Position numbers and translations under genes: made by a program
The notes under the pieces: model-generated
Told to the model about the DNA's origin: nothing
Databases searched by the model: none
Seen by the model: only the letters and a program-made list of their open reading frames with translations
Assembly (NCBI RefSeq): GCF_002571385.2
Contig: NW_019218285.1
Span: 42,560 to 106,559, forward strand
Source of the DNA: Stylophora pistillata
Taxonomy: Eukaryota
DNA: 64,000 bases
Direction of reading: 5' to 3'
Shown here: positions 6,772-48,801 of the stretch, one piece after another
Layout of the letters: every line of letters starts with the position of its first letter
Numbering within the stretch: the stretch's first letter is position 1

Positions 6772-6773
6772 GA

Positions 6774-17915: not shown

Positions 17916-20900
17916 ATGGAATCGGAAGAAAAGGTTGAAAAGCTCAAAGAACTATTCCAAAGTCTGTCAAGGCCTCTTTTAAGAGCAATTCTTTGCAACA
18001 ACGAAGTCGATGGCAACTTAACTGCAGCCGTTCGGTGGATACAAAAATTTGAACCGGCGAAAACTACCAAGATGCCCTATCTGCCTGCAGTAGCTGCTGA
18101 AAAGGAGTTAAAAGAGGGTTCATGTTGCACTCCTGATGTTGGATTTAGCCAGAAGGAAAAGAACTGGACAGGAGAAGGTAAACTGAATAAAGACGCTTAC
18201 ACTGCTCAGACCCTAGACTTGAAATGCTGTGTCATTCGACGACATGCCAAGAAAACAACAAAAGAGGAGTGAAGGGTTAGATAGTCTGCGTTGATCAGCA
18301 AACAGGTTTAAATTCAGACAGCAGAAGATTCATAATTGCAACATTTTAGTCCACGGATACCAATTTCTTTTATTATCCTTCACAGGAAATAGCCAGCAAG
18401 CCAGAGAGCCAGACCCTCACAGTTCAACAAACCAAGACTACCACCAAAACAGCTATCAAATCAATCACCTCCACAGTTCAGCAAGCCACCACCAACACCA
18501 ACAAAACTACAATCGACTCAGTCATCTTCACAGTCCGGCAAGCTAGAACCCCCACCAAAACCACGGCCAGCTCTATCGCCTTCACAGTCCAGCAAGCCAA
18601 TATCAAAACCACAATGAACTATATCACCTTCACGGTTCAGCAAACCACCGCCACCATCTGCTGCTCCAAAACCCCGGTCAGCTCAATTGCCTTCACAGTC
18701 CAGCAAACTAAGACTACCACCAAAGCCACAATCCAATCCGGCATCTTCACAATCTCGCAAGCCACCACCACCACCATCAAAGCCACAACTAACTACATCA
18801 TCTTCACAGTACAGCAAATCACTACCACTACTCCACCTGTTGCATCAAATCCACGATCACCTCAATCACCTCCACAGCTCATTAGGCCAGAACAACCAAA
18901 ACCACGGTCGGCCCCATTGCATCCACAATTTAGCAAACAAGAACCACCACCAAAACCACTAACAACTCAGTCATCTTCACAGTCCAGCAAACTACCACCG
19001 CCTTCATGTGTTGCGCCGAATATGCGATCAGCTCAATCTATGTCACAAACCAGGAAACCACTACCGCCACCTGTTGCACCAAAAAAACAATGAACTCGAT
19101 CACTTTCACAGTCCAGAAAACGAGAACGTTCGCCAGAATTAACTCGATCACCTTCATCGTCCAGCAGGAGAGCATTACCACGAAAACCTCTGTCAGATCC
19201 CTCACCTTCACCATCAGACGAGTCAACACCGCCTGTTGCACCGAAACCACGATCAACTCGATCACGCTCACAGTCCAGAAAACGACAGCGTTCGCCAGAA
19301 TTAACTCGATCACCTTCGCCGTCTAAAAGGAAAGCATCACCACGAAAACCAGTCTCAACGAGCACACCAGAACGTCCATTGGAGTCAACTCATTCACTTT
19401 CACCGTTCGGCAGGCAAGCATTACCAGCACCAAAACCGCATTCATCAGGATTTACAAAACAAAGAATCAATTTCAGGCAGGAAGTAGGTAACACATTCGA
19501 AAAAAAAGGTGCAAAACCCAAGAGGTCAATTAAGTTGGATTCTGTAATCTACTACATTGCTTACAATTCAAAGCAGATACATTTCGTCTCAGCTGCGTCC
19601 TAGCTAAGTTTACCTGAACCAATACAGGTAACCCACAAATATCATAATTTGATTTGAGTACAAATGCAAATCTTTATTATTTGGGAGGGTTAACTTTTTT
19701 CCTCTTTCGTTTAGATTGACGATTACAGGGATTGAAACAGTTACAAAAAAGTTCTATATGAAATCTTATTTTGTAAGAAGGCTCTCCATAAGTGTAACCT
19801 ATTGGGTTTGTATCCATTGTTATGACGTCATTGTTTATACGTCATGGTCATGTGACCTGGTGCTCTTCCACGTGTTCGTTCGATCGTAAAAAACTATGTT
19901 GTGTTTGATTTACCTGAGCGGTTTGCTGTCTCCCCACAATCTTATCATGGTGTCAGGAGTGGAATTTTAACCCATTTTCGGAGTTGACAGTGGCTGCTAC
20001 GTCTTCCTGAAAGTTTCAACGATTTTTCCGCGGCTGTTAGCTGACAGAAAAGGTTATAGTCTGCGTTCAATTCTCATATAACATAGCCACCACGACTGCC
20101 GAAGCTCCTGCTCCGCTGAATCTATCCGACCGTTTGCACCAAGGTGAAAACTGGAAATTGTTTCGCCGAGAGTGGAAATTGTATGAACTAGCAGCTAGTA
20201 TTCATAGGAAGGCGGATGAAGTTCGTGTTGCTTCTTTCTTAAACGTTGTTGGCAAGGAGGGATTGGACGTGTACGAAACCTTTCAGTGTGAGGATGCGTC
20301 TCATGCTCTTAAAATCGACAAAGATTTGGAAAAGTTTGAAGAGCGCTGCGTTCCTGCTCGGAATGAAACGTCCGAAAGGTTTGTTTTCTTCAAACGTGAG
20401 GAATTGTTGAGTGAGTCGCTCGATTGCTACATAACAGCATTGATGAAGCTGTCTGAGCACTGTGGTTTTGGAACGCTCCGTGAATCGCTTGTTCGCGATC
20501 GTTTGATTCTTAGAGTAAAGGATGACAAGCTCCTTGGAAAAGCGCCTTGGAAAGCGCGATCTCGACTTGGATAAAGCCGTTGAAATGATCAAGGCTAGTC
20601 AGGTTACTCATTGATTTCGCGAGCCTCGGAAATTTCAAGTGAAGCTTCGGTGCAGGAAGATATCAATGCTCTGAAACACAAACCTAAGCCACAGAGGAAA
20701 TCGGAGAAAAGGATGCTCATGAAAAATTCCACTCGAAACCTGTCGTCTTTCAGGAAACTTAAAGAATGTCTCTTCTGCGGTGGCAAACATGCGCTTGACA
20801 GATGCCCATGTCCAGCATCTGGACAAACATGCCAGAAATGAGGCAAAGTTGGACACTTCGCAGTCAAATGTTGCAGTAAGTCTGAGAATGTGAATGTTAA

Positions 20901-23900
20901 TGATGTAAAGGAAGTTTTGTACATAAATGACATCGGTGGCAAAGATCAGGTTCTTGTTCCAGTCACTCTAAGTGACACTGTTTCAATAACATTCTAGATT
21001 GATACAGGCTCATCAGTAAATATTTTGCCACTAGAGGATTACATCAGAGCCAATAATGATTTCAAAAGAACTAGCATTGTTCCTAAAGATATATCACTAG
21101 CGATGCATGATCACTCAAAGCGAAAGGCATTGGGTTCTGCGAGGATGAAAGTTGAGAATAATGGCAAAAAACATGAACTGAACTTTGTCATTGTTGATCA
21201 AAGGCTTACACCTTTCTTGGGCTTAAAGTCTTGTCAAGGTATGGGTCTCGTTAAAATTATGGTCTCCGGTGTTCATGCCCCTGTTAAGAATGTTGCTGCT
21301 ACTCCAGAGAAAGCTGTATCTGAGAGTATTACTACAGATTCTGTGCTTAGACCCTTTGCTGATGTATTTCAAGATATTGGTTGTTTACTTGGTGTTGACA
21401 GTATTTCATTACATCGGAATGTAAGTCCTGTAGTTCATCCTCCTCGTAGAGTGGCTTTTCCGAAGAAAGATGCCCTGAAGGCAGAGCTGGAAAACTTGGT
21501 TAACAACCAGATTACTACACCTGTTATTGAGCCAACCAATTGGGTATCCAGTGTCTTGGCCGTGCTGTAAAATGATGGATCAATCCGTGTATGCCTGGAC
21601 CCCAAAGATTTGAACATGGCTATTAAACGTTCACACTACCCCCTACCTACAGTGAATGATACTACGTTCCGACTCACCAAGGCAAAGGTCTTCATTGTCA
21701 TGGATGCCGCGTGCAAAAAGTGGGTTTGACTAGTGAAGCTATCAGAGAGTTCCAGCTATTACACCACGTTTTACATTCCATTTGGCAGTTTTCGCTGGTT
21801 AAGAATGCCCTTTGGCATTTCTTCTGCGCCTGAAGTATGGCAGCGGAAAATGAATGAAGCAATTGAGGGTCTTCGGGGAGCGGAGGTCATAGCTGATGAC
21901 TTTCTCGTGTGTGGTTTTGGAGACACAATTGCAGATGCAGTCCTGGATCACGATCAGAATTTAAATGCTTTTCTTGAAAGGTGCCGGAGTCTGAATCTGA
22001 CACTTAATACTCAGAAAGTCAAGCTCCGCCTCTACGAAGTACCTTTCATGGGTCATTTGCTAACTGCTGATGGTACCATTACAGATCCAAGCAAGATCCT
22101 TGCTATTAAGGACATGCCTACCTGAACAGTTGTGACATCACTGAAGAGATTTCTTGGCATGGTTAATTATCTGGCAAAGTTCCTTCCAAACCTGTCCAGT
22201 GTATCGGAACCATTGCATCAGCAAGTTAAAAATGCAGTTCAGCCGGCATGGAATACCGGAGATTGTCATTTCAGTACGATTCCGCCGATTTTACCAAGTT
22301 TGCAAAAGACTGGCATTTCTAACAGATTACCTCCTCGCCTCGCAACCCTCAAAGCAACGGAAAGGTTGAGAGTGCAGTTAAAATCTGTGCAAATATCATG
22401 AAGAAGGCAGCTCTTGGAAAGTTTGATCCATATCTTGCCCTTTTAGACTATCCCATTACACCTACTGAAATTGGCTCCTCTCCGGCTCAAAGGCTGTTCA
22501 GCAGAAGAACGCGCAACCTGCTACTGCTAACACCAAGACTGCTTGAACAAGCAACAGTTCCTCCCATGGATGTGCAGCAAAAGCTAATTGCCACCAGACA
22601 AAAGCAGGCCTACTACTATAACCTCAAAGGAAAGGCATTGCCTGAACTACTACCTAGTCAGACTGTTAGGATTGAGGCAGTTTGTAAGAAAATGATCGGA
22701 TGAGGTCCTGACAAGATTACCTCAAGAGGACTCAAACTTGGTGGAGATGCTGTAGCAATTGGCCTGTCGTATGTGATGGAAGTAAGTTTAAAAAGCTCAA
22801 GTTACCCTCCTCGATGGAAGCTGAGTAAAGTAAAAGCTCTACCTAAAAAGGGACATAGCTCTGAAAGAGGTGACTTTCGGGCTATTTCTCTCTTGAGTAT
22901 TCCTAGCAAAGTGTACTAGGGCATAATAGGAGATTCCATTGAATGCCATTTTAATAAGGGAGGCTTGTCCAGCAAAATCCAGTGGGGTTTTAAAACTGGC
23001 AGGTCAACAGAACTCTTAATGATGATGATGATGATGACTTTATTTAAACTCGGATGAAAATGAGACTTGTTAGGCCTCTAGCAATAAAGATGCTAATATA
23101 CCGAGAAAAATATATGAAGATAAATTACAGAGTTTGAAAATAACATAAGCCTAAATATAAATGATGATATAAATGATGGTGATATAAAATTACAAATTAC
23201 TTAGATTTCTTATCTCATTCCTGAAAGGGCCAAATTGGGCCATTACTCTTAGTTTATCAGGTAATGTATTCCAAGCCTTAGCAGCAGTGCAAAAAGTTGA
23301 TTTGAGGCCGAAAGTTGTGGTCTTAGCTACAAACAAGTTTGTTTTTGCCCCTAAGATTTTTCTTATTTTCTTTAGTATTTACGTCAATGATCTGTCTGAG
23401 GTGCCTAGTTGTGGAAAGATGGAAATGTTTGCTGGCGACACAACTCTATATTGTAAAGGTAATTCCATAGATGATGTCAGCCTTAAGATCCAAACTTCTT
23501 TAACTGAAATAGCTAAGTGGTGTAACAAGAATTGTTGAACAATTCATCGCGATAAAACTGCGGTTATGCTTCTTACCCGTAATGTTTTCATTGCTCCTCT
23601 ACGACCAATCAAACTGGGTGGTCATGCCATTAACTATGTCAACAAGTCATAATGTCTTGGGTTTATGATTGACAATAAGTTAAGCTGGGGACACCACATC
23701 AAAGAGCTATCAATACCTATGGCCAAGAAGGTGAAGCAACTGCGCAGGTTTAAAAGCCTTCCCTCTCATATCTTGGAGTCTATATATTTTAAAGGAATTT
23801 TACCAAGCATCACTTATGGAATTTGTGTATGGGGTAACTGTAGTGAAGCAAAATTAGGTGTTTTAGGGAAAATTCACCTGAGTGCTTCCAAGCTCATCTT

Positions 23901-26900
23901 CAAACAACTTGGAGTTCGTAAGTCCCAATCACTGATACCATCTTCTTGGAAATCCATACGTTACTTCTACAAGATGAGGCTCCTTGACACACAAAGTTTT
24001 TTTATGGGATCTGTCCTGAGTAGGTTGTAACAATTATAAGGAAAAGTCCAAATATACGAAATACGAGGGACAATTTGAAACCAACTCTGGAGAGACCAAA
24101 TTCCAATGTTGAAAGACGGTCTTTTAGACATAGGTCTGCAATAGCGTGGAATTCCTTACTTCATTCTGTTAAAAGCATAGAGGATAAGATATTTAGGAGA
24201 AAACTCCGTTCTCTTTCAACAATTATTGAGAAGATATCTTTTAATCAAACTGCTCTAGTTGGCAACAAGGATTTGGTAAATTGTAAATATTTTTAGGAAT
24301 TTTATCTTACTACCTCTATTGAAATTTATGCTAGGATTATAAACCAGTTTGAATCACTACTCACATTTTAATTTATGCTAGGATTTTTCTACTTTTTTTT
24401 GTAATTACTTTACTTAAATAGAAGCTAGATTTGTCGCAGGTCCACATCAGCTTAATGCTGCCAGTAACCAACCTGCGTTACCAAATAAATTATCTATGTA
24501 TGTATGTAGGTATGTATCAACTATTGTGTTTTCACACTTGTGTTCTCGTCTCTTGAGTATTAAGGCTCTAGAAGAATCCTTTTTCAATTTATTGATCTTG
24601 CAGCATGCCGCTAAATTGCCTTTTGTAAGATTTGTTTCGCAAAACAGTATTTTATACACAAAGTTTTTGTCACTATCACCTANATTAAGCACATCAATTT
24701 GTTTACCTACTTTCTTAATTAACTTAAAATTTAACTCATTGTCAATTACAACTCCTATGAGTTCCACATTATCGCTCGCTTTGACTTGGAAACCATCAAT
24801 ATCAAGTTCTACTAGATCACTTTTTCGCTAGGGAAAAACTAGGATTAACGCCGCACCTGACTGAAGTTTGGAGACAAGAACTGGATAAAACCAAAACTGT
24901 GGGGGTATTGTTTATAGACTTTAAAAAGGCATTTGATTCCAATTGTCATAAAACGATGGCCCTCAAACTCCAAGCTTGTGGAATATCAGGGAACCTATAC
25001 AATCTGATTGAAAATTACTTATCTGAGAGAAAACAGTTTGTTGAGGTCAAGGGGAAAAGATCTAATGAAGTGACAGTCAAGTTTGGCGTACCCCAGGGAT
25101 CAGTACTTGGCCCCAGGCCTTTTAGTATTTACGTCAATGATCTGTCTGAGGTGCCTAGTTGTGGAAAGATGGAAATGTTTGCTGGCGACACAACTCTATA
25201 TTGTAAAGGTAATTCCATAGATGATGTCAGCCTTAAGATCCAAACTTCTTTAACTGAAATAGCTAAGTGGTGTAACAAGAATTGTTGAACAATTCATCGC
25301 GATAAAACTGCGGTTATGCTTCTTACCCGTAATGTTTTCATTGCTCCTCTACGACCAATCAAACTGGGTGGTCATGCCATTAACTATGTCAACAAGTCAT
25401 AATGTCTTGGGTTTATGATTGACAATAAGTTAAGCTGGGGACACCACATCAAAGAGCTATCAATACCTATGGCCAAGAAGGTGAAGCAACTGCGCAGGTT
25501 TAAAAGCCTTCCCTCTCATATCTTGGAGTCTATATATTTTAAAGGAATTTTACCAAGCATCACTTATGGAATTTGTGTATGGGGTAACTGTAGTGAAGCA
25601 AAATTAGGTGTTTTAGGGAAAATTCACCTGAGTGCTTCCAAGCTCATCTTCAAACAACTTGGAGTTCGTAAGTCCCAATCACTGATACCATCTTCTTGGA
25701 AATCCATACGTTACTTCTACAAGATGAGGCTCCTTGACACACAAAGTTTTTTTATGGGATCTGTCCTGAGTAGGTTGTAACAATTATAAGGAAAAGTCCA
25801 AATATACGAAATACGAGGGACAATTTGAAACCAACTCTGGAGAGACCAAATTCCAATGTTGAAAGACGGTCTTTTAGACATAGGTCTGCAATAGCGTGGA
25901 ATTCCTTACTTCATTCTGTTAAAAGCATAGAGGATAAGATATTTAAGAGCAAACTCCGTTCTCTTTCAACAATTATTGAGAAGATATCTTTTAATCAAAC
26001 TGCTCTAGTTGGCAACAAGGATTTGGTAAATTTGAAATGTTTTTAGGAATTTTATCTTACTACCTGTATTGAAGTTTATGCTAGGATTGTAAACCAGTTT
26101 GAATCACTACTTATATTTTAATTTATGCTAGGATTTTTGTACTGTTTTTGTAAATTTTTTCTATTGTTTTTGTAATGCGCTAGCTGATGTTTGGCTGTGT
26201 AGCCGCGTGATGCGGTTCCTGTCAATACCCACTAATTGACCCTTGCTCACCATAGAGTCTCCTGTAGCTATGGTTAAAGCATCCGACTAGATCACGGAGG
26301 GTCGTGGGTTCAAATCCCATCTGGAAACTCGGCTTTCGTAATTACATGTAATTTAATTGGATAGAAGTTAGATTTATCGCAGGTCCACATCAGCTTAACG
26401 CTGCTATTAACTAACCTACGTTAACAAATAAACTATGTATGTATGTCTATATGTATGCATGTATGTATGACCACGCTCCTATGCTGTTGTATCTAGTAAC
26501 CGTACCTATCGAAGAAATCGTAGGCAGCTACGTTTGGTCCCACCTGCGGCAAACCTGCTGGTTAGTTCTGAACAACCACATGATACCAACAAGGAACAGC
26601 AACCTATCCAGTGTGCCACACTCCAAGAAAATTCTGGAGGCAACTCCTGGTCCAGCTAGTCCCACGACAACTACTGTCCCCATGGCGTCCAGCCTTACTG
26701 AAACAAGGAGTGGCCGCACAGTTAGACCGCCAGCCCGTTTTGAAGACTACACGTCTTAGGAAATTTGTGAACAGTGTTGTTAGAGACATTTTTGCTTTGG
26801 ATTGCTTTTAAGGACTTCTCGTTAGGGTTTTCTATCTTTTATAAAGGGGAAGATGTTATGATTTCATTGTTATACACGTCATGGCCATGTGACCTGGCGC

Positions 26901-29900
26901 CCTCCCTCGTGTTCGTTCGAACGTGAACTATTTAAAAAACTAAGTTGTGTTTGATTATACCTAAGCCGTTCGCTTTCTCCCTACAATCTAAACATCCATA
27001 GCAACGTTCTCGCCGGGTAATCGAACAACGCCATTCCAGTTGCTCAATACTGAAGAAAGTGCTAAATCACCAAAAGGCACAGCAGCAGAGCTGGTCACTG
27101 AGCTAATGAATCTCTTCCCTGCGGGATTCCTAGTTACACACCAAGCAGTTGTGATATGACGCGTCATATCACAATTTGTTTTGCATTTTGAAGTGCGCGT
27201 CCGCTGTCCCGAGATGCGATCACTCCCGCTTTTTTGATGGCGCGTGTGCCCAGCGTGACGGTGTTTCTGTCGGAAAAGGTAGAGGAATCCTCAATTTAAA
27301 ACGTAAGGATTGACGGTAACTTATTTGGATTCCTTGTGAATTATTGTGGTGTAATTCGCGATTACACCAGGTATCGACAATTTCTCAGAATTTTTTTAGG
27401 ATTCATTTTCTAAAAGAGAGGCTTTCTCGAGCGGAACAATATTCTTGCTTTGTACTAGAAATACAAGGAGATATCTCTCCTTAAGCGCTCTGAGTTGTAA
27501 TACATGTGTAATTTTTGGTGTTGACACCTGATGCCAAAGTCAAAATCTTCTCCGTGCAGCTTAAGAGACGAAGCTTCCTTCTGAGGTTTATAGCAGACTT
27601 AAAATATCTACGATTGAAACTGCAATATATTTTTAGCTTTTAATAGTTTCATTTTCACTGCAGTCTTTGAATGAGCTGTCAGACAGAACATAGCTAAGCG
27701 TTCCCCCATTTAGAGGCTATCAAGGACAAGTTTCAACCTAGCACCTCATCGAAAATGGATGACGAATACTCATATTATGGTAAGAAGTCTACATTGCAAT
27801 TTGAAATGAATGTAAATCGAAACCAAACGGATAATATTGAATCTTCTTGTGTACCTATAGAAGCGTTTGCACTCGTGATCGTTTAACGGCAAACATTGTA
27901 ACTCTGGTGTTAGGTATAAAATAACTGATAAATGGAGTTATAACGCAATCTAGTAGAGTCTTGCGCCACTTTTAAGCAACAGATCGAGACATTTTTAGCT
28001 TGCATATTGTAGATGTTCATTATTTACGCACCAATGCACTAGTAGGACTTGTGTACACGACTTCGCAAATTTCTCGAATTTGTTATCAATATCTAAGTTC
28101 AAGAAACTACTGAAAAGTGCAGTTGTTGTTTATCATTTTATCAGTGTTCGTGATCTAGGAAATTTTCTTAAAATTAAACACAACAATCTCAAAGGGTTGA
28201 AGCACCTGGAAACAAGTGTTTCAAGTCAATTTCTGATGCAAGTTCATGAAAAGCGCAAAAGAAAGCAAGCTCGTATCAATTCGAAAAATTTGTAAAGGGG
28301 AGATTGAGGCATGGTTAAAGTCTAAAACGGGACCATTTCATTTAATTCTAAGCCCACGGAACGCTTTTAAAAATCACCAATATTTCAAAATCCAAATGTT
28401 ACATTTCGTAGCAAATTTTTAATTATCATTTTCCCCATGCGGTATAACTCAGAATCGGTTCAGGTTAAGCTCATGATAAATGGAAATAGTGTTGTTTTCG
28501 AGGATATTAAAACTAGTTTGGGGCTATTCATTTCCGTGCGGATAAACCAAGCTGAACTTCGTGAAAATCACGACATCGTCATTTACGTCACGACATAATC
28601 TAATTAGGCACCCTGTGGTTAAATCCGGAATTCCAAGCACGTTTTTGAAGTTAGCACGGTTAGGAGTGTGGAAAGTGCAGAGTACGGAGTGCTTTCCACA
28701 CTCCTCATTTTCCATTTAAAACTCTTGAACAAAAGCTCATCTTTCAAACCGGCAGTCTAANNNNNNNNNNNNNNNNNNNNNNNNNNNNNNNNNNNNNNNN
28801 NNNNNNNNNNNNNNNNNNNNNNNNNNNNNNNNNNNNNNNNNNNNNNNNNNNNNNNNNNNNNNNNNNNNNNNNNNNNNNNNNNNNNNNNNNNNNNNNNNNN
28901 NNNNNNNNNNNNNNNNNNNNNNNNNNNNNNNNNNNNNNNNNNNNNNNNNNNNNNNNNNNNNNNNNNNNNNNNNNNNNNNNNNNNNNNNNNNNNNNNNNNN
29001 NNNNNNNNNNNNNNNNNNNNNNNNNNNNNNNNNNNNNNNNNNNNNNNNNNNNNNNNNNNNAGACTAGATCACCCGTTCCGGGCATCACTGTTTCCATAGA
29101 CGTTGGATGAAGGAGAGGGTCACAAAAATTCCGTGCATTCTAGAAGAGTTATCCAGCCATGCTAAGGGAAAATGCGCAGGCCCTATCGGAGAATTAATAA
29201 TGCGTTTTTGAGAAAAATTTTTCAGAACAATTTTTCAGCTAACCCTTTTTTCAGGTTTGCGTTGTTTAAAATTATCATTTCGAGGAAGATTTCGAAAACG
29301 TCGCAAAGCGCCGGTCTAGTCAAACTGCGCGACATGTTCATTATTCCAGATTTTTTTAAATTTGTGGTTTGCTTACAGAGATTTAATGTGTCAGCCTTCG
29401 GAATTACAGAAGCTGTGCAAGGGAAGACAAATAAGTAGTTGCTGCAAATAATAATTTCATACTAACCAAATGCGTGGCAGTACGGAGCGAGCGCAGCGAG
29501 GTCCGTTGAAAAATGACCGAGGGCCAACAATACAGCTCAAGCAAGTGATGTTACGAAGTTTTTTTATCATGGCCTGTAAAGATCCTGAGAGCTCAGGATT
29601 TAACAAGATTGAATATAGCGATCCTTTAATGTCCGCCAACGTGTAGAACGTAGAAACTACGTATTCCGAGCCCGCCGACTTGTCTGCGGTTGCCAATAAT
29701 ACCATACATTGTTACAAGACCGTTCGGAAAAAGTTCTTTAATTTTAATTTTTCGGCTTTCGCTAACAAAAATATACGGCTTATGACCGCTTCCGTGGAAA
29801 TGGTACGTGTGGCAAGGTCCAGTCAAAGTAAGAACTAATCGCACGGTTGGATTTACCTCAAAACTGTCCTGCCATTTCGTAAGTTTTTATAACCTTCAAG

Positions 29901-32900
29901 CTCGAGGTATTAATTTACGTAAATAGTCTATTTTCTCACTGAGCTTTTTTGCTTGAAAATACATGTCCTTGCAACTTTTTACCTCGTGCTTGCGTTTTTC
30001 TGCTAGAAACTCATTGTAGAGAAAGGGTCACACCTGATCACAAGTTTTTTTATAGGTGTGGTCGTTAACTCGATCGAATTGGTTTTAAGTGTTTAGCGTA
30101 CGTTTTGACATACCTTTTTTAGATTTTGACGTTCAAAAAATGTTAAATCGATGTCAGTGACGTTATACACCGACTAATCGCAGCTTCAACATCTGGAGCA
30201 ACCTACAAGCTTTTGATTGTAGTATTTTGAACCTTACCTGGGTAACTGATAATTGAAAATTTGCGACGAAATGCGATCTGTAGATTTTGAAATATTGGTG
30301 ATTTTTGAAAGCGTTCCCTGAGCTCAAAAGTAAATGAAATGGTCCCGTTTTAGACTTACGCCATACTTTAATCCCTCCTATAGAAATTTGTCAAATTGAT
30401 ACGAGCTTGCTTTCTTTTGCGCTCTTCATGAGCAAAGTTCATTTGCCTCTACTCGGTGCACTGATTTCCGCCGTTTTACGGCTACTGACGCTCGACTCAG
30501 TTTTCGTGAATATTCTAGGATAAAGAAGCAAATCTAGGGAAAAAACCTTACCACGTTTCTAAGTTCACTATAGGGTAAATCTGGCAAAAATGCGAAGGTT
30601 TCAAGTTTTTGGTCATGTGCCACATTTTTCGATTTTCACTCGGTTATTTCAAACATTCGCTCTCAAGGCTACAGAATTGACTGTACCTGAAAAAGAATTT
30701 TTAGGAACTTGAGTCTTTCCTCCTTTCCTCTCTCCAATTCTAAATCGTCCTCTTTCCTTTTTCTTCCGTTATATTAATTGTTGAACAGAATGGATGACCA
30801 TCATTTTACTGTATTTTAATGGCAGACAAGGCTCAGGGACATATGTGATTTAGGGAGAATTTTTCAGTGGGGAGGGGGGGAAGGGAAGAGAATCCTTAAC
30901 TGTTTTTTTGGGGAATACAAATTAGCGTTTTTGCCGTACTTTTGTTTCTTTGTCAGTTGACTTGAAGAGATATAACACGATAAATCGTCATGTAAATCGT
31001 GACTGATTTCTCACTTTTTAATTTACAGGCGAAGATGAACGAGAAGGAAATGAAGATCTTTGTTTTTTTAACGTCCGTGACCATGTTGACCAAGATGACG
31101 GAGTTCGTGAGACAATTGAGGAGAATATAGACAGAGAGTTGGATTCATCATCTGCCATAAACAAGAACAAGCAAGAAGGCCAGGAGGAGGAAGAAGAAGA
31201 CTCAGAAGAATTAGAGCGAAAAACAAAAGAACTGCAAGTGATATTCAATTGTTTACCACCAGTTCTTATCAAAAGAGTTCTCGGTCGAGAAGACGTTAAG
31301 GGAAGTATCGAGAAAGCGAGTCGGAAGCTACAAGAGTTTCAAGATATGGAGAATCCTGCAGACAGGGAGACCGCGTTAGGGCAGGGAACCACAGTGGTAA
31401 CAGAAGGCGTGGTAAAATTTGAATACGAGGAGCACAGGGGCCATGATATCAAAGGTAAGGAGTTATCAATTAGATAAAAGGTGTAGGTTTTAAAAGAAAC
31501 TGTAATGTTGTGTCGGTGGGAGGTATTACAATATAATTTAGTTTTATAAACTGAGTTTCTAATATAAATTGGCCACCATAAAGAGTTTCTAAAGCTTAGA
31601 TTTCGAGAGAAAAATGACGAAGAGCTGATACTAAAAACATCAGTTTTAACGTTGACTGATTTTTTGGGGAATACAAATTAGCGTTTTAACTTTTTCTTTG
31701 TTTCTTTGTCATTTGACTTCAAGAGGTATATCATGATAAATCATCATGTAAATCAGGACTGGTCCCTCACTTTTTAATTTACAGGCGACGATGATTACGC
31801 TGAAGAAGAAGGAAATAAAGATCTTGGTTCTTTTAACGCCCGTGAACATGTTGACCAAGATGACAGGGTTCATGAGACAATCGAGGAGAATATAGACACA
31901 GAGTTGGATTTATCATCTGCTATAAACAAGAACAAGCAAGAAGACCAGGAAGAGGAAGAAGAAGACCCAGAGGAGTTAGAGCGAAAATCAAAACAATTGC
32001 AAGGTATTTTCAGTTGTCTACCATCAGTTCTTATCAAGAGAATTCTCCGTCGAGAAGACGTCAAGGGAAGTATCGAGAAAGCAAGTCAGAAGCTACAAGA
32101 GTTTCAAGATATGGAGAATCCTGCAGTCCTTTTTAAAAATCCGGCTGAAGGAAAACCATCGGCGGAAAGACCTGAAGGAAAATTTGAAGCTACTCAGACA
32201 CGCAGCTCTATTAAGCAAGCTTGGGTGGCAGAGGGAAAACCCTACCGAGGCCCTGAACAGGAAAGTAACAGAGGGAGGAAAAAGGGAAGAAAGCCCAGGG
32301 AAAAAAATCAAAAGCAAGGGCAATATGACGATGCAGTACGACACGATGAAGGTAGGAATAGTTGTGATGGTGATATATCAGATCAAAGTGAAGGGAACCA
32401 TGCTTATAGAGGCCACAACCCAACATCGCCACCTGATGCACCGAAACCACAATCAACTCGATCACTTTCACAGTCCAGAAAACCAGAACGTTCGCAAGAA
32501 GTAACTCGGTCACCTTCACCATCCAGCAGGAAAGTATCGCCACGAAAACCACTGTCAGATCCATCACCCTCGCAATCAGGCCAAAAATCAACACCACCAC
32601 CTGTTGCACCGAAACCACAATCAACTCGATTACTCGATCACTCGACACCCAAACCGAAGGAAACGGCTAGTGGACGAGGTGGGAGGCCAGGAGGCAATTA
32701 CCGGGAACAATATCCAATTCCAGGAGATTTTCAGGAGAGCGACCAGTTTCCAGATGCCGAAGATCAATCTCAGTTCATGCTAAGGCAACTGAGCCAACGA
32801 AATCGAGGAAGTAGAGATTGTCATGAAATGCAGGTTCATCCAGTATCTTTGAGGGAGCTTGTCGGCAGTGAAACTATAGCCCCCAGTTCTATTGATGATT

Positions 32901-35900
32901 CCGATAGAGAGAAGGTCAGACAAGATGAACCCAGCAAAATCGGACAGGAAGACAGCGGTAGGGCACAGAACCGCCGTAGTAACAGAGGACGTGGTCAAAC
33001 TGGGATAAGAGGAGCACAAAGCAAGTCCAGTGTGACGGGAGAGGGGCCTGCTGACATGGTGGAAAACGGAGAAGATCGGCCTCAATTTGAAAGAAATAAA
33101 TTACTAATCCAGGGGTTAGGAGGGAAAACAACTGAAGACGGATTGAGGAACTTTATTGAGGCAAAGAGCGGTGGGGAAGAGGTTAAAGACGTACAGATGC
33201 TGAAGAATGGAAATGCCTTGGTCATTATGGCCGATAATATCAAAGGTAGGGAGTTTTTTCAATTGAATAAAAGGGGTATGTTTCAAAAGAAGCTGTGATG
33301 CTGTGTCGGTGGCGGGGGGGGGAGTATTACAATGTAATTTAGTTTTATAAACTGAGTTGCTAATGTAAATTGGCCACCATAAAGAGTTTTTAACGCTTAA
33401 TTTTCGAGAGCGAATGACGAAGAGCTGACACTAGAAACATCAGTTCGAAACGTCAGCTTTACAAACTCTTTACGGTAGCTAATTTTACTATCACCCTAGT
33501 TGATAAATGCGGATTTATGTTCTTTTCGATCGAATATGGAGGGAAAGCAGGAATTGTTTGATAGTGTCGCTTTAATCTGTTCGCGAGTTATCAGGCAAGA
33601 GAGCTCACGCTAACTTAGTTGCAACCTGTCAGTTTCAAGCAATGAACTTATCTTCGATAAACATGTTTGATTAAAAATGTTGTATACTTTGGTTGTACCA
33701 TATTTTTATATTTCGAAATACAAACTCTGATTGCCTTTTCTTTATCAAACTATCAAAATAAGTGAGATCCAAATGATTAATTGATGTTGGTAATATACAA
33801 GTTATTAAATAAGAGTTGTCTTTCAGGATGACATCCAAACGGTAGATTACGAGAAAAAGGTTTGTTGAAAATGCGATCTTTTTATTTCAGATTTCAGAAA
33901 AATCAATACCGAATGCGAAGAAAGAGGTCTGGACGATGCACAGGTTTCCATTGAACAAGTCCCGGTTTGCAAAAGCATCCTTGTCACTGGCTTTTCTAAA
34001 AATGTTACCCATAATTTTATTGAACAGTACTTTGAGAGTCCTCGAAACGGTGGGGGTCCTGTGGAGAAGGTTCACTACATACCGAAAAGTGGCCGAGCTG
34101 TGGTTGTGTTCCAATATACAAAAGGTTTGTAACTCATCGGTCTTAAAAATAGAGGTATGGTCTGATTCTTTCTGGCACAATACCTGACATTCAAAACTCA
34201 AAAAGTGATGATTGATTGATTGTTCTACTCTGTCCGAAACACCCAACTGCCTTTTGGTTTTTCGTCGCTCTCAAGATTAAGGGTCAGAGAGACTTGAGAA
34301 ATGACAAATAACTTTTGACAATGAAAAACTGCGATAAAATGAGAGCCAGTTTAGAATGCTTAAAAAATGCGGCACGAAATGGGATTGTCTTGTTTATGAA
34401 ATGTTGTACATAAGAACAATAAGGCCCAATTTAAACACCCAGAGCGACTCCATTAGGGCTAAACTCTTTGTTTAACTTTTAACGTTTTGTAATTTTATTC
34501 ACCGCTTCATTATATATATACTCGATTTTATTATTATTTTAGTTTACTTGATAATGACGTTCTGGAAACGTCGAAACGTCGTGTCATGCTTTATAATATT
34601 TTATCGCAGTTTTTCATTCTCAAATGTTTTACCAAATCTTTGCTTATACAAATAACTTTCTCCAAGAAATTCCTGACACTGAGTTGTTTCAATCAACAGA
34701 TATGGAAAGGGTATTAACGAGACATGAGGAGAAACCTCACGTGTTACAACAAACCCAGGTGTCAATTGAAGTTTATAAAGAGTTTCTAGAGGTTGAAGAA
34801 GCTGATGTAGTAGATGGTTCAGGTGACTTAGGAGCGACTGCAATCAGAGCCAGTGAAGCTCGAGAGAGCAAGAAGCACGATGCCAAACCAAAACAGTTGC
34901 ACGTACCTGTGGATCCAGATGTCATGGAGTATGTCAATTCCACAGGTTTCCAAGCTGAACTGAACAATTTGATGGCTGTAAAGAAGAGCGAAATCACCTG
35001 GAAAGCCAACAAAAAAATGGCTGTCATAGTGTACCGTGGGGAAGAAGAGAGCAATTCCTGGCAATCTGAATGCGTTAATCAGCTGCAAAGCTACTTCGGC
35101 AAGTTTGCAAAGTGCGATGTGCAGGTCAGCAAGGATTTCTGGGAAGCCGTGGTAGCTAAAGTTCCCAGCATTCGCGCCTGCTTGGGAGTTGTTCCCCCGC
35201 TGGTCAAGACTATTCCAGATTCAAATGTGGCTAGGATCGTTTCATTAGGAACAGATGTGAAAAGTAACGAGGAAAAGGTGAAGTCTAAGTTAGAAGAAAT
35301 CTACCGCGAGGAAACCAGAAAAACTTACTTAAAGAAGAAAATTCCAAATGTTCCTAAGAAGCGCTTAATTTTTCTGAAGAAAATAAAACTTGCTGAGAAA
35401 CTTCAAGAAAAGAACAAAGAGTTGGAGATCAAGTTCGATGGTGAAGCTGAAGAAGTATATTTGGAAGGTCCCCAGCCACNNNNNNNNNNNNNNNNNNNNN
35501 NNNNNNNNNNNNNNNNNNNNNNNNNNNNNNNNNNNNNNNNNNNNNNNNNNNNNNNNNNNNNNNNNNNNNNNNNNNNNNNNNNNNNNNNNNNNNNNNNNNN
35601 NNNNNNNNNNNNNNNNNNNNNNNNNNNNNNNNNNNNNNNNNNNNNNNNNNNNNNNNNNNNNNNNNNNNNNNNNNNNNNNNNNNNNNNNNNNNNNNNNNNN
35701 NNNNNNNNNNNNNNNNNNNNNNNNNNNNNNNNNNNNNNNNNNNNNNNNNNNNNNNNNNNNNNNNNNNNNNNNNNNNNNNNNNNNNNNNNNNNNNNNNNNN
35801 NNNNNNNNNNNNNNNNNNNNNNNNNNNNNNNNNNNNNNNNNNNNNNNNNNNNNNNNNNNNNNNNNNNNNNNNNNNNNNNNNNNNNNNNNNNNNNNNNNNN

Positions 35901-38900
35901 NNNNNNNNNNNNNNNNNNNNNNNNNNNNNNNNNNNNNNNNNNNNNNNNNNNNNNNNNNNNNNNNNNNNNNNNNNNNNNNNNNNNNNNNNNNNNNNNNNNN
36001 NNNNNNNNNNNNNNNNNNNNNNNNNNNNNNNNNNNNNNNNNNNNNNNNNNNNNNNNNNNNNNNNNNNNNNNNNNNNNNNNNNNNNNNNNNNNNNNNNNNN
36101 NNNNNNNNNNNNNNNNNNNNNNNNNNACATGAACATGAATAACGCCGGAGACTTGAGCAAAGCCATAGCAAGACAGAGTGGTCCACAAGTGCAACAGGAA
36201 TGCAACCAACTGGGAAAGCAATCTCCTGGAACAGCGGTATTAACCAACGGAGGTAGTTTACAAGTACCTTATATTATTCACATTATTCCTGGCTCTTCAG
36301 ATAAGAAACATCTCCAGCAATGTTTGGAGGAGGGTCTTCGTATTGCGGACACCAATAACTTTCAAGCGATCTCAATTCCATGTGTTGGCACAGGAGGCTA
36401 CGGCTTGACTGGAGCAGACTCAGCGGAACTGACGTTCAAAGCACTAAATGCATTCAGTGTCCGCTGTAAAAGCATTAAAAAGGTGAGGGTGGTTGTGTTT
36501 CAGGCTTCTATGATGCAGGAGTTTCTACGAGAGCAGAAGAAACAACCACTGCAAGATATTGAAGAAGAAGACAGTGATGCAGAGAATGCAGCTGCTAGGC
36601 AAACCAGAAGACTGAGACGTAGGCAGGTACCAGTCCAAGATAATGAAGACTTTGTAAGAATATCTGTGATCGGTAAAGACAAGTTCAGCGTGAAAGGAGC
36701 CTTGAAATCCCTGAAGAGAAAGTTAGGACCCGCTTCAACATCCTGGCCGGGTTATCGAACAACTAGGGGAGCACCTGATACGCTGAAACTGATATCGAAA
36801 GAGACTTGGAGGGAAGATCTAGGTAACAAATTGAATTAGTATAACCTCCACCAGGCAGAAAAAATATGAGGGATTACCTCATAGTACCATCGATGACCTT
36901 GTTACGAGCAATTGTCTCCGTCTCTACTTACAAGATCTCCTCCATCTTTCCCACTAATATGGGAAAAATCAAGGAGAACTTAATCGCAGGGCAATAATTT
37001 GTATAATTATTTTACAGAGAAAAGAACCCAGCGCTACGTCGGGAAATTGGATGCCCAAGTCAGGGCTTTTGAGCTACACCCAAACGCACTCCAATGTCAC
37101 AACATGCCCTTCAGGGAAAGCTGGCTAGATGGAGAACATATATGGAGAGGAGAGAGTAAGGAATTGGGTTGCTTGAGGCGATGAATTCATCATCAATATT
37201 AAGTACAGCCTAACTAATATAATTATTTTTTTACGGAGATTCACTTGTTAACTAAAGCGTTTTACCCCAATGCCACTTGATGACAGAGGAAATGACGTCA
37301 ATGTTCACTTGGTAAAACTCGATAGCTCTTCACCCAAATGTTTCGAAAGAAACTGTGATGCTGTGTTAGTGGGGGTATTACAATATAATTTAGTTTTATA
37401 AACTGAGTTGATAATGCCAATTGGCCACCTTAACGAATTTCTAAAGCTTAGGTTTCGAGAGCGAATGAGCTGACACTAGAAACGTTAGTTCGAAAGGTCA
37501 GCTTTACAAACTCTCAACAGTGGCAATTTACATATCACCTTAGTTCTTAAAAGCGAATTATGTTGTTTTCAATCGAATATGTAGGATAATCAGGCATTGT
37601 TTGATAGTGTCGCTTTGATCTGTTCGCGAGTTATCAGGCAAGAGAGCTCACGCTAACTTAGTTGCAATTTGTCAGTTTCAAGCAATGAACTTATCTTCGA
37701 TAAACTTGTTTGATTAAAATGTTGTACACTTTGTTTGTGGCTAAATAATTAGGATGCCTCGTGAATACCACCACTTTTTTAAAACTCTGATTGCTTTTTC
37801 TTTATCAAACTATCAGAAATAATTCAGATCCAAATGATCAATTGATGTTGGTACAGATACAAGTTCTTAAATCAGGGTTGTCTTTAACGATGACATCCAA
37901 ATGGTAGATTACGAGAAAAAGGTTTGTTGAAAATGCGATCTTTTCATTTTAGTTCTCAGAGAACCCGATGGCAAGGAGAAGAGGTCTGGACGATGCAAAG
38001 GTCTGGACGATGCACAGGTTTCCATTGAACAAGTCCCGGTTTGCAAAAACATCCTTGAAACTGGTTTTTATGAAAATGATCAGTTCATGTTGGTACTATA
38101 CAATAATAATAATAACACTTATATAGCGCTTATTCGTATGCGTTCTAAGCTATTAAATAAGGGTTGTCTATCAGGATGACTTCCAAACGGTAGATTGAGA
38201 GAAAAAGGTTTGTTGAAAATGCGATCTTTTTATTTTAGAATACAGAAAAAAAAAGTCCAGTCTCGAAAAAAGATTAGGTCTGCACTATGCACAGAAGTAC
38301 AAAGGCAAGCAGAAGAGGTCTGGACGATGCAAAGGTCTGGACGATGCACAGGTCTCCATTGAACAAGTGCCGGTCTGCAAGGGCATCCTTGTCACTGGGT
38401 TTTCAGAAAATGTTACCCATGATTTTATTGAACAGTACTTTGAGAGTCCAAGAAACGGTGGGGGTCCAGTGGAGAAGGTTCACTACTTACCTAAAAGTGG
38501 CCGAGCTGTGGTTGTGTTTCAATATAAAAAAGGTTTGTAACTCATCGGTCTTTAAAATATAGCTATTGTCTAATTCCTTCTAGCACAATACCTGACATTC
38601 AAAGCTCAAAAAGTGATGATTACTCGTCCCGACGATTGGTTTTTCTACTATGTCTGAAACACTCAACTGCCCTTAGTCTTTCATCACACTCAAGATTAAC
38701 GGCCATGAAGAGTTGAGAAACGAGAAAATAACTTTCTCCGGGATATTCCTGACACTTAGTTGTTTTAATCAACAGATATGGAAAGGGTGTTAACGAGACA
38801 TGAGGAGAAGCCTCACGTGTTACAACAAACCCAGGTGTCGATTAAAGTTTATCAAGATTTTCTAGAGGTTGAAGAAGTTGATGTAGCAGATGGTTCAGGT

Positions 38901-41900
38901 AACTTAGGAGCGACTGCAACCGGAGCCAGGGAAGCTCGAGTGAGCAAGAAGCACGATCCCAAAACAAAGCAGCTGCACATACCTGTGGATCCAGATGTCA
39001 TGGAATACATCAATTCCACAGGTTTCCAAGCTGAACTGAACAATTTGATGGCAGTAAAGAAAAGCGAAATCACCTGGAAAGCCAACAACAAAATGGCTGT
39101 AATAGTATACCGTGGGGGAGAAGAGAGCGATTCCTGGCAATCTGAATGCGTTGACAAGATGCAAAGTTACCTCGGCAAGTTTGCAAAGTGCGATGTGCAG
39201 GTCAGCAAGGATTTCTGGGAAGCTGTGGTAGCTAAAGTTCCCAGCATTCGCGCCTGCTTGGGAGTTGTTCCCCCGCTGGTCAAGACTATTCCAGATTCAA
39301 ATGTGGCTAGGATCGTTTCATTAGGAACAGATGTGAAAAGTAACGAGGAAAAGGTGAAGTCTAAGTTAGAAGAAATCTACCGCGAGGAAACCAGAAAAAC
39401 TTACTTAAAGAAGAAAATTCCAAATGTTCCGCAGAAGGGCTTAAATTTCCTGAAGAAAATAAAAATTGCTGAGAAACTTCAAGAAAAGAACAAGGAGTTG
39501 GAGATCAAGTTCGATGGTTAAGCTGAAGAATTATATTTGGAAGGTCCCCAGCAACAGGTTACGGAGGCAGCCAAGAAGTTCTTTACACAAATCACTGACA
39601 CGGTTGAAAAGAAACTTACTTTATCTGCCAGCTTCTTGGAGATTTTAAACACAGATGAAGGGCTTCAGACTGTAAAACGTGAGTTGGAAAGAAACAACCT
39701 GGAAGCAGTGTTCGTTATTGAGAAAGATGCCACCATAGTGGGATCATCAGCAGCGCATGCAGACAACGCGGCGAGGCTCGTGAACAAATTAATGCTGGAA
39801 GAGAAAGTTCAAGTGGACGAGAAAAGCAAGCATTTGTTGAAGTCAGCTGAGTGGCTGAAATTGTGCGACGAATTGAACCAAACGGCTGTTCGTGTCCATA
39901 GAAATAGCTGGAACGATACATATGTAACCGGGTTCCGAGATGACGTCACCGAAGTGATCAAGAAGTTTAATACCTTCCTCGAAAACAATTGCATCAGGAA
40001 GGAACGTTTTGTGTGTGAGTCTGATATTCAGCGGAGGTATCTTCTTGAGCTACGTCAAGATGATCTGCGTACTATACAAGGTAAACTGAAAGATTTTGGA
40101 GTGAAGATTGAAAAAGGAAAAGGCTATGATGATTTTGTCATTTCTGGAAACAGAGAGGGTTTGAAACGTTTAAGAAAGGAGATCGGCGCTGTGATAAATG
40201 CCACTGAGTCGAAAACCTTTGAGGTGAAACAGCCAGGCCTTCGAAAATACTTTGATAGTGGAAAAGGAGATCGGCTGGTGAAATCAGTAGAAAAAGACCA
40301 AGATTGTGCCATAAAAGTCCAGAAAAATATAGGTCGAGGAAGGGTGGACGAGGAGGTGCACCTCCAATCCGTATCCGATGGTTCTACTTCTTCATGCGAC
40401 AGTGAAGATGATGCTGAGGATGACCAAGCTATCACTGTTGGAACTGACGCGTCCACCCTTGTAATTGCCCAAAAGCACAGAGTGTCGTGGAAATCTGGAA
40501 AAATAGAGGCAGAGAAGGTAAGATTGTCACTGTTTTCTTCGCACCAGGAAGATATAACATGAAAATACGTTAGAGGATACGGTTGGCATAGTTACGTAGT
40601 TTGGTTCTTCAATAAGCTCTCACGCGCTCATAGATTGTGGTTCCATGATTGAGTAACTTCTGTCTTGTTGGGAGTGCGAAGTCTGATAACGATAATAATC
40701 TGCCATATCGAAGAAGTAAACAAATTAATAACATTAATTTTTACCGTGTATTGCAGGCGGACGTACTTGTCAGTTCTCAAGGAGCATGCGATGAAGCAAT
40801 CATTAAAGCCGGTGGTCCTCAGGGCGTAACTCCTAAAGTTGGTGACATCGCTGTCTCAGGTGGTTTTTCCTCGGTCAGTCACGTGATTCACACCAACTGT
40901 TGTAAGTGGAACAACGGCGGAGGGGAACCGGTACGAAACAATGAAGTGTGACCCGTAAATGTTATTAAATACGTGTATAAGTGTTCACTTTCGAGGGAAA
41001 GTACCTCTTTAAAATGAATTGACGAGTACTTATTACTTCATTCGATGAAAGCCTTGACAATATCGGATGCCCAAGTGGCGAAGCCTATCCATTATCTTGT
41101 AGGATAAAGCAACTGATGACCCTCTAGCCTTGATTTAATGTTCTTTCCGATGTAGGTTATCCTCACGCATTCTGTTGGGTTTATGACGCCGAAGCAATCT
41201 CAGGAAGAAAGCCTCACCCCTTACCGAATTCTTCGAGAATAATCAATCGAATGTATAACGAGAAGATTTTTGCATACAGTAACTTTCAAATTGTATATGT
41301 GAGCATCCTTGTTAGAAATTTTGAATAATTAGTAAGACAAAGATCTTTCAAGGAGAAAACAAATGTGGTTCTATTCCAAAGGTTATTGCCGAGAGGTTTC
41401 ATCCAAACATTCTTGATCTTGATCCCAAAAGAAAATAGTATATGTGTGAACATCCTAGAAGGCACTCTCTTATCATCCTTTGGAAAGTTTTAGTAAAATT
41501 AAACTTTGATCTTTGGATAACAGATTCAAGGCCCCAGTAATTTGAAAGTTGGATTACGCTATCCACTGGTTAAATCTTTATCCAAGCACGTTTTGCTATC
41601 CTTGCACGTTTTGCTATCGATTGCTATCGATTTGTGATCGACGCAGCACATTTTGCCATCGATTATCCGCTGGATAGCAATGTATCCGTTGGATAGTGCT
41701 ATCTGTCCTTCATATAAGTGGAGCTTGGAGTCTCTCAGGAGTGACCACTGAGTGTTTTTCCTTTCATTATCAATGAATCATCAGCCAGAAAGGTGATCGG
41801 AAGACAGGACAAAATATCAACAAGGGAATATTGCATGACTTAACGCCAAATTCTGACGGCCACATTTATGCAAAGTGTACATAGGACAGTCTAGAGAGTT

Positions 41901-48530: not shown

Positions 48531-48801
48531 TTTAGCAGTCTAAACAGCCCCCTTCCAAAAGATTTCTAATCAGCTTGCCTCTTATCTTGTGATGCTTTGA
48601 CCTGGTGGGAAATCTATTTGCAACTGACGAATCACAGGTCACAAAGGCACAATATGAGTAAAACAGTTTTCATTTTGGTAATTTCCATGTACCAATTTTA
48701 TCCCGGTAAACACCTGCTAACGAACGCGAGTTAAATAAATCATCGTTATAGAAACTGAAATGTTCGGCTAATATCTTGTGTTTCCCCTTTGGAACAGCTT
48801 A

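What the first reader, a model, noticed from the sequence alone, without database searches (positions are those of the whole stretch)
17916..33245. Macro-PARP with repeated CUE-like (ubiquitin-binding-like) N-terminal modules
Four related ~45-aa three-helix segments occur: EEKVEKLKELFQSLSRPLLRAIL...GNLTAAVRWI (17916), LERKTKELQVIFNCLPPVLIKRVL...GSIEKASRKL (~31210 and ~31975), and EEKVKKLEKEFPGLSKLLIKRTL...DLTEARQKL (61027). They fit the CUE pattern (L--hFP-L----I---L----G-h--A---L). Mammalian PARP14 begins with RRMs and has no CUE domain; ubiquitin coupling is instead known for PARP10 (UIMs) and PARP9-DTX3L. Inference: a coral-specific architecture combining ubiquitin sensing, PPVAPKP SH3-ligand-like repeats, RNA binding, ADP-ribose reading and mono-ADP-ribosylation, possibly an innate-immune effector.
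Basis: inference. Interest (0 to 1): 0.7.

Follow-up and report, generated by a model that had tools for sequence, protein, structure and literature searches.

The report
CUE-fold cap on coral PARP14-like genes
A family of stony-coral PARP14-like genes carries a small N-terminal domain predicted to fold like the ubiquitin-binding CUE domain, but it lacks the usual ubiquitin-binding residues, so it likely docks another protein; this rearranged gene copy splices two such domains together and likely stops before its catalytic end.

Summary
The four segments are real and homologous, and two of them were modelled as three-helix CUE/UBA folds. They are not four modules of one protein. 31199 and 31964 lie in one spliced gene (RNA joints) and come from a recent exon duplication. 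17916 is a degenerate remnant without RNA cover; 61027 opens a second tandem paralog. The conserved form in other corals has one module: four named gene models, plus an intron-free 6.5-kb contig that runs from module to PARP domain. The ubiquitin-binding motifs are eroded: hydrophobic-F-P in 0 of 64 aligned modules, second di-leucine position hydrophobic in 2 of 64. PPVAPKP is absent from 6 of 6 other gene models. In this gene the spliced route meets an in-frame TAA at 39519, before the macro-WWE-PARP half, and that allele is seen in 3 of 4 runs. Verdict: a new, apparently unreported variant of PARP14-like architecture. Ubiquitin sensing is unproven and less likely than not.

The parts
27664..27779 (+). 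Exon 2 of gene 1, with start codon at 27755; a non-coding exon ends at 27302
   Evidence: GT..AG joints 27302>27664 and 27778>31028 in contigs of X1 and X3; ATG position; same N-terminus in P0091, P0074, P0186
31029..31454 (+). Duplicated short exon with CUE-fold module 1 (31199-31360)
   Evidence: 87% DNA identity to 31652-32126; joint 31452>31783 in X1 and X3; sister to module 2, support 99/83
31785..33245 (+). Large exon: acidic stretch, CUE-fold module 2 (31964-32125), low-complexity region with two P-x-x-APKP repeats (32429, 32597), start of RRM
   Evidence: joint 33243>33889 in X1, X2, X3
33891..36822 (+). First internal copy (Y): RRM exon 33891-34124, KH-region exon from 34700, N gap 35480-36126, macro exon to 36822
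   Evidence: 94-96% identity to the second copy; joint 34122>34698 in X2 and X3; contigs that match Y run into the gap from both sides
36718..38000 (+). Unique linker read as exons (36718-36822, 37018-37155, 37953-38000) that joins copy Y in frame to copy Z; a PARP-exon remnant lies at 37264-37335
   Evidence: joints 36820>37016 and 37155>37953 in X1, X2, X3; 38000>38266 in X1 only; frame; single match in the genome
38239..40517 (+). Second internal copy (Z): RRM exon 38239-38532 and KH-region exon 38776-40517
39519..39521 (+). In-frame TAA in the KH-region exon of copy Z
   Evidence: only internal stop of the joined 3' half; reference T carried by contigs of X2, X3 and X15; the G contigs match copy Y
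40757..45721 (+). Macro x3, WWE and PARP catalytic exons (40757-40930, 41993-44018, 44096-44425, 45426-45721), open among themselves; H-Y-I triad near 44350, 45449, 45650
   Evidence: Pfam; joints 44014>44092 and 44424>45425 in X1, X2, X3 and 40929>41992 in X1; motif places
17916..19489 (+). Degenerate remnant: module exon 17916-18177 and Pro/Ser-rich repeat exon from 18386, with frame changes and stops; followed by retroelement relics
   Evidence: GT-AG join stops after 140 codons; depth 0 over 18036-19937 in 4 of 4 runs; paralog of the 61027 region
61027..64000 (+). Start of tandem paralog 2: module exon 61027-61282, exon ending at 62388, 940-base N gap, large-exon tail from 63600
   Evidence: gene model P0101; 84% identity of 63600-63984 to 32721-33105; continues beyond the window; model and fold search; no RNA test

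Best explanation
A lineage of stony-coral PARP14-like genes carries an N-terminal three-helix domain, predicted to have the CUE/UBA fold, that lacks the standard ubiquitin-binding motifs and likely serves as a docking site for another protein rather than for ubiquitin. In the conserved form one module sits before a disordered RG-rich linker and the RRM-KH-macro-WWE-ART chain (shown by an intron-free contig and by gene models). The module would bring this likely RNA-binding mono-ADP-ribosyltransferase to a partner (inferred), as SMARCAD1 CUE1 binds KAP1 and the KHNYN CUE-like domain binds ZAP. An antiviral role is inferred from the family only. The gene in this window is a rearranged member of a tandem cluster: the module exon was duplicated recently, both copies are spliced in, the RRM-KH-macro stretch is duplicated internally, and the route traced by the splice joints ends at a TAA before the catalytic half. 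It therefore likely gives a two-module, non-catalytic product or a decay-prone transcript, unless exons hidden in the N gap splice past the stop.
For: Fold: AlphaFold pLDDT 89 and 93, three helices. Foldseek rank 1 is gp78 CUE (prob 0.97, E 0.62) and Tollip CUE (prob 0.89, E 1.5); most listed rows are CUE/UBA. VIA best Z 8.6 HBS1-like, SMARCAD1 CUE1 7.4, Tollip CUE 7.2. Sequence: the 4-module profile retrieves 73 of 1.84 billion proteins, of which P0063, P0070 and P0071 are multi-CUE proteins (E 9e-7 to 1e-4) and the member P0060 passes Pfam CUE at 34.5 bits. Profile against 10 own-genome CUE matches: probability 87.6%, pairwise E 3.5e-6. Motif loss: hFP 0 of 64, xFP 4 of 64, L+hydrophobic 2 of 64, Gln at the second Leu position in 47 of 64; these motifs are called essential for ubiquitin binding in PMC6688830 and FP mutation abolishes binding in N4BP1 (PMC11032371). 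Constraint: dN/dS 0.074/0.326 between the two window copies and 0.061/0.447 between L040 and L039, over 54 codons. Linkage: L039 holds one intron-free 2061-codon ORF from module to PARP domain, where genomic L040 and L056 have introns. Gene 1 structure and stop; model P0091 also ends at the stop.
Against: No fold match reaches E<=0.001, and the tool warns that Z under about 13 in helical bundles may reflect a common arrangement. No partner was identified; the docking role is an inference from motif loss plus conservation. The Phe of the FP motif is kept in 60 of 64 and the first Leu in 62 of 64, and some divergent members left out of the 64-row count keep FP (P0005 first module, P0047, P0060), so weak ubiquitin binding remains possible. 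One hit of the library search, P0072, is a Sel1-repeat protein, so the weak tail of that search includes noise. Short contigs cannot phase copies that are 94-96% alike, X2 and X3 are only guessed to be RNA, the 38000 joint rests on one contig, and X1 shows only the G contig at 39519.
Confidence: 0.55

Rival explanations
1. The module is a divergent but working ubiquitin (or ubiquitin-like) reader, and the protein couples ubiquitin sensing to RNA binding and mono-ADP-ribosylation, with tandem copies adding avidity.
For: CUE/UBA fold and distant sequence kinship. Phe and first Leu kept. Tandem modules also occur in P0005, P0021, P0028, P0047 and P0060. Human PARP14 acts in ubiquitin-containing p62 bodies (PMC12084362, abstract) and PARP10 carries UIMs (PMC10450202).
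Against: Pro of FP present in 4 of 64, an acidic Glu at the Met position in 31 of 64, second Leu mostly Gln. A two-residue insertion lies between helices 2 and 3. Several divergent CUE domains do not bind ubiquitin (PMC11032371, PMC6688830).
Confidence: 0.3
2. Gene 1 does make a full-length two-module catalytic protein, by splicing from copy-Y exons hidden in the N gap to copy-Z acceptors past the stop (40757 or 41993), or in individuals without the stop.
For: The exons after the stop are open and spliced. Contigs unlike copy Z and unlike the three assembled paralogs adjoin the gap, so Y holds further KH and macro sequence. The joint 40929>41992 is seen in X1.
Against: No laid contig shows such a bypass. 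The Y-to-Z linker joints are seen in 3 of 3 RNA-type runs and lead into the exon with the stop.
Confidence: 0.3
3. The repeats are assembly artefacts of a gappy short-read scaffold, and the module is a chance helical stretch or a vestige.
For: Four N gaps of 300-940 bases lie in or near these genes, and there are many near-duplicate segments.
Against: The 31452>31783 joint and the linker joints are in independent runs. The DNA-like run X15 spans 36604-37041. The two module exons differ by 13%. dN is well below dS.
Confidence: 0.07

Closest known systems
PARP14 (macro-PARP, ARTD8) and PARP14-like proteins of corals
   Same: RRM, KH-like region, three macro domains, WWE and ART in the same order; ART aligns to PARP15/PARP14 at E 3e-53 to 9e-50 for the ortholog P0093. 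PARP14 homologs in corals are reported (PMC10221186, passages).
   Different: Extra N-terminal acidic stretch, CUE-fold module and long RG-rich linker. The first macro domain is short and scores weakly. Gene 1 is internally duplicated and has a stop before the catalytic half.
CUE domain (Pfam PF02845; gp78, Tollip, Cue2)
   Same: Three-helix model with TM about 0.72 to gp78 and Tollip CUE; conserved L..xF, core Leu/Ile and Ala.
   Different: Below the Pfam cut-off, MFP and LL eroded, two-residue loop insertion.
CUE-fold domains with non-ubiquitin partners: SMARCAD1 CUE1-KAP1 and KHNYN C-terminal domain-ZAP
   Same: Both are among the fold matches (6h3a, 9bgl). KHNYN-ZAP is an antiviral RNA system that includes a PARP-family protein (PMC11685948, passages).
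   Different: 13-28% identity; SMARCAD1 CUE1 keeps its FP and LL; no partner is known for the coral module.
Invertebrate PARP14-like proteins with added N-terminal domains (HEPN, TRADD-N, DED)
   Same: Same theme of a variable N-terminal cap on an RRM/KH-macro-ART chain (PMC8195603, passages); HEPN_DZIP3 and TRADD-like_N exons precede another PARP14-like gene on this contig.
   Different: A CUE-fold cap was not in the passages seen; that paper's source-data files were not read and might list it.

Membership tests
CUE domain | Three-helix CUE/UBA bundle of about 45 residues | tested here: met
   Predicted models, pLDDT 89 and 93, with CUE/UBA top matches; no E<=0.001
CUE domain | Sequence homology to CUE | tested here: inconclusive
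   Pfam CUE 0 of 5 own modules; profile retrieves 3 true CUE proteins at E 9e-7 to 1e-4; profile-profile 87.6%
CUE domain | MFP/hFP motif after helix 1 | tested here: not met
   hFP 0 of 64, xFP 4 of 64; 0 of 2 in the transcribed modules; definition from PMC6688830
CUE domain | Di-leucine (LL/iL/ih) in helix 3 | tested here: not met
   2 of 64; Gln at the second position in 47 of 64; register from the profile alignment
CUE domain | Binds ubiquitin at the I44 patch | not testable with these tools
   Needs a binding assay
PARP14-like macro-PARP | Three macro domains followed by WWE and ART | tested here: met
   Exons at 40757-45721; orthologs P0093 and P0201 in one ORF
PARP14-like macro-PARP | N-terminal RRMs and KH array | tested here: met
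   RRM_PARP14_3 E 5e-13; KH_PARP14 hits weak, best E 3e-5 in P0091
PARP14-like macro-PARP | Mono-ART triad H-Y-L/I without catalytic Glu (triad recalled, not from a call) | tested here: met
   FHGT, GVYF and SIFVV motifs in the window; same positions of P0093 align to PARP15; activity not assayed
PARP14-like macro-PARP | One open frame from the N-terminal modules to the ART domain in window gene 1 | tested here: inconclusive
   The traced route has a TAA at 39519; the N gap hides exons that could bypass it
SH3-ligand repeats | Conserved PPVAPKP-type motifs between module and RRM | tested here: not met
   2 in P0091, 0 in 6 of 6 other models, which hold 1-7 RGG and 1-2 PKPK instead
Coral-specific architecture | Absent outside Scleractinia | tested here: inconclusive
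   5 of 5 named carriers are scleractinians; most hits are unnamed and the searches need shared words

The most novel reading that the evidence does not exclude
Stony corals fused a CUE-derived reader to their PARP14-like enzymes, so that one chain recognises a ubiquitin-like or partner signal, RNA and ADP-ribose. The cluster then shuffles this cap into full enzymes, a two-module non-catalytic decoy (gene 1) and a minimal module-plus-ART enzyme (predicted at G000:C500:110029-112365), forming a rapidly evolving immune toolkit.
Probability: 0.25. Interest if true: 0.7.

Novelty: new variant of a known kind. Interest (0 to 1): 0.42.

Why it matters
Links between ubiquitin signalling and ADP-ribosylation are an active topic, and in mammals they run through PARP10's UIMs and the PARP9/PARP14-DTX3L partnership. 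A conserved CUE-fold cap on coral PARP14-like proteins is a separate evolutionary route to adding a protein-reading module to this enzyme. It is a 50-residue domain that is easy to assay, and it would add to the few CUE folds known to bind something other than ubiquitin. I found no paper holding CUE domain, PARP, mono-ADP-ribosyl and macrodomain together (0 papers), and searches listed none on this architecture. The interest is moderate: extra N-terminal domains on invertebrate PARP14-like proteins are a known theme, and no ligand is shown.

Tried and rejected
Complex prediction of module 2 with the genome's own ubiquitin gave no verdict (scores 0.00 and 0.01, mark 0.34, alignment not used, controls not folded); it is not evidence either way. 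Sequence searches of solved structures with A1 and A2 gave only unrelated weak hits. The Atlas look-up gave no result for either query, so no taxon data came from it. A metagenome scan with A1 matched 597 stretches, none confirmed. Raw-read runs X22 and X23 were thinly sampled (about 2 in 100) and divergent, and gave only 2 reads on one joint. The lack of RNA cover at 18036-19937 is weak alone, since contigs show presence, not absence; the remnant reading rests also on the frame breaks and on the separate first exons at 27.3-27.8 kb. The linker 36718-37250 was suspected to be a repeat; it matched only itself and had no Pfam hit, and that search skips common words. P0060 as query found nothing in the genome. 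The idea that 17916 splices to the 31-kb exons was dropped: no such joint in 4 runs. The idea that the internal duplication is a haplotype artefact was dropped. The idea that the 940-base gap hides a second module in paralog 2 (936 bases of exon front are missing) is untested, and model P0101 has none. Earlier findings of the scan: nothing returned. PMC13224862 has 0 occurrences of CUE, UBA, coral or invertebrate.
Full report
Setting. The window is G000:C500:42560-106559 of a 398-Mb animal genome. It lies in a tandem cluster of PARP14-like genes: window 3305-17668 is repeated in pieces at 46108-60907, 32721-33105 at 63600-63984, and 33278-36717 in pieces at 37338-43544. More macro-WWE-PARP copies follow downstream. 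The named model P0091 (Stylophora pistillata LOC111341422) matches the window's exons at 83-100% in its best segments, so the source is a pocilloporid coral.

The observation. The four segments are present and related. A pattern fitted to them finds these 4 places and none in 100 shuffles, while the strict hFP pattern finds 0. Pfam CUE hits 0 of 5 own modules. Two protein searches found 5 copies in the genome, all on this contig.

Is the module CUE-like? A profile of the four modules found 73 proteins among 1.84 billion. Most look like single exons of the same gene family; in the weak tail are three multi-CUE proteins (P0063, P0070, P0071) and one unrelated Sel1 protein (P0072), and one family member (P0060) passes Pfam CUE. 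I aligned 59 of the 73 with 5 own modules (A2). The 14 left out were P0001, P0005, P0012, P0021, P0028, P0032, P0047, P0059, P0060, P0062, P0063, P0070, P0071 and P0072. AlphaFold gave three helices at pLDDT 89, and 93 for the 61027 module. Foldseek ranked gp78 CUE and Tollip CUE first, without any E<=0.001. The wide VIA search gave Z 8.6 for an HBS1-like domain, 7.4 for SMARCAD1 CUE1 and 7.2 for Tollip CUE, in a range that the tool calls unspecific for helical bundles. A profile comparison with 10 own-genome CUE matches gave 87.6% probability and showed a two-residue insertion. Together these make descent from CUE likely (about 85%). The 17916 and 31199 modules were not modelled separately.

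Does it bind ubiquitin? PMC6688830 (passages) names MFP/hFP and a di-leucine as essential, and PMC11032371 (passages) reports loss of binding on FP mutation in N4BP1. In A2, hFP occurs in 0 of 64 rows, xFP in 4, and Leu plus a hydrophobic residue in 2; the Phe (60) and first Leu (62) are kept. Three left-out divergent proteins keep FP in at least one module. The module is nonetheless constrained: dN/dS 0.074/0.326 between the two window copies and 0.061/0.447 between L040 and L039, on 54 codons, with dS saturated in 5 of the 10 window-to-locus pairs. A conserved domain without the ubiquitin motifs suggests another partner (inference). Precedents among the fold matches are SMARCAD1 CUE1-KAP1 and KHNYN-ZAP.

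Which modules belong to which gene? Contigs of X1 (RNA) and X3 (guessed RNA) show GT..AG joints 27302>27664, 27778>31028, 31452>31783 and 33243>33889. The joined 5' half is open for 975 codons up to the N gap and holds two modules. These two are sisters (99/83) inside a 7-row clade with the Pocillopora modules (96/99), so the doubling is recent. The 17916, 61027 and fifth modules fall in another clade of 29 rows (97/91); the tree has only 54 columns. The 17916 unit has no depth over 18036-19937 in 4 of 4 runs, no joint to the 31-kb exons, and stops after 140 codons when joined at its GT-AG sites. The 61027 module starts paralog 2 in model P0101; this was not tested with RNA. PPVAPKP-type repeats at 32427-32633 are 84.5% identical to 19065-19265 and are absent from 6 of 6 other models, so they look like a local transfer, not a conserved motif.

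Linkage to the catalytic domain. In the family it is shown: P0074 and P0186 (Pocillopora), and P0093 (Orbicella) hold one module and a PARP domain in one model; P0092 (Oculina) has the module and macro domains but ends early. L039, a 6522-base contig, encodes P0201 as one intron-free ORF of 2061 codons, while genomic L040 and L056 carry introns, so it is most likely a spliced transcript. In window gene 1 the case is different. Joints run on through 34122>34698 (X2, X3), 36820>37016, 37155>37953, 38530>38774, 44014>44092 and 44424>45425 (X1, X2, X3), 40929>41992 and 38000>38266 (X1 only); X15 shows no GT..AG joint and covers introns, as DNA would. The joined 3' half has one internal stop, TAA at 39519 (my join at 40520 included one extra codon, the GT site is after 40517, frame unchanged). 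The T is carried by contigs of X2, X3 and X15. The G contigs match copy Y at 4 of 4 sites where Y is sequenced and differ from the two downstream paralogs that cover the site. P0091 also ends there. So the traced route gives module-module-linker-RRM-RRM-KH-macro-linker-RRM-KH-stop. Contigs cannot phase these copies, and Y has unassembled exons in the gap, so a bypass remains open (about 30%).

Mechanism, step by step. Shown: sequence, splice joints, stop, one-module architecture in relatives, motif loss. Predicted: the CUE/UBA fold. From family knowledge: RNA binding by KH domains and RNA ADP-ribosylation by PARP14 fragments (PMC10450202, passages); macro domains read ADP-ribose. Inferred: the module docks a partner protein, and the gene family acts in antiviral defence. 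Not shown: any ligand or activity.

Novelty. Searches for this architecture found nothing: all four terms together 0 papers; searches listed no paper on it; a 2026 PARP14 review has no mention of CUE or corals (term search only). The library lacks most subscription papers. Added N-terminal domains on invertebrate PARP14-like proteins are known (PMC8195603, passages; its source-data files were not read and may bear on this claim). I rate this a new variant of a known kind, interest 0.42.

Noticed in passing
G000:C500:110029-112365 (L005/L006, outside the window): A Pro-rich ORF with a fifth module has a GT site that could splice in frame to two PARP catalytic exons, predicting a compact module-plus-ART gene without RRM, KH or macro domains. 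Similar module exons exist in the library (P0011, P0023, P0044). No RNA test.
   Followed up: partly
G000:C500:143212-154771 (L009/L010): Exons for HEPN_DZIP3, TRADD-like_N, RRM, KH, macro, WWE and PARP lie in a row: another PARP14-like gene with a different N-terminal cap.
   Followed up: partly
window 40757-40930 and 41993-42350: The first macro domain is short and scores weakly, here and in relatives, whereas PMC10221186 reports an active first macro domain for a Stylophora PARP14; that may be another paralog (not checked).
   Followed up: no
window 36718-37155: Unique sequence of unknown origin has been taken up as in-frame exons in three runs.
   Followed up: partly
window 6777-8006 (- strand): AT-rich mitochondrial-like insert: ATP synthase a ORF (Pfam E 1e-43) and a neighbouring ORF that resembles nad6 (recalled label); it is missing from the duplicated segment near 51 kb.
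   Followed up: partly
window 3966-5039 (-) and 46867-48470 (-): Intact rhodopsin-family GPCR ORF with a broken duplicate in the second repeat unit.
   Followed up: no
window 17055-17531 and 20041-26043: Broken reverse-transcriptase-bearing retroelement relics (two RVT_1 hits), with a 99% identical 1-kb repeat at 23371/25121, separate the 17916 remnant from gene 1.
   Followed up: no
P0005, P0021, P0028, P0047, P0060 (library proteins, taxon unknown): Divergent members with two or three modules in one ORF; some keep FP. Tandem modules thus arose more than once.
   Followed up: partly
G000 contigs C243, C106, C153, C745: Dense arrays of PARP14-type RRM exons: 55 matches genome-wide to PF23085.
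   Followed up: no
G000 contigs C365, C366, C4141, C194: Long arrays of divergent ubiquitin-like repeats besides the canonical polyubiquitin; candidate ligands worth including in a binding test.
   Followed up: no
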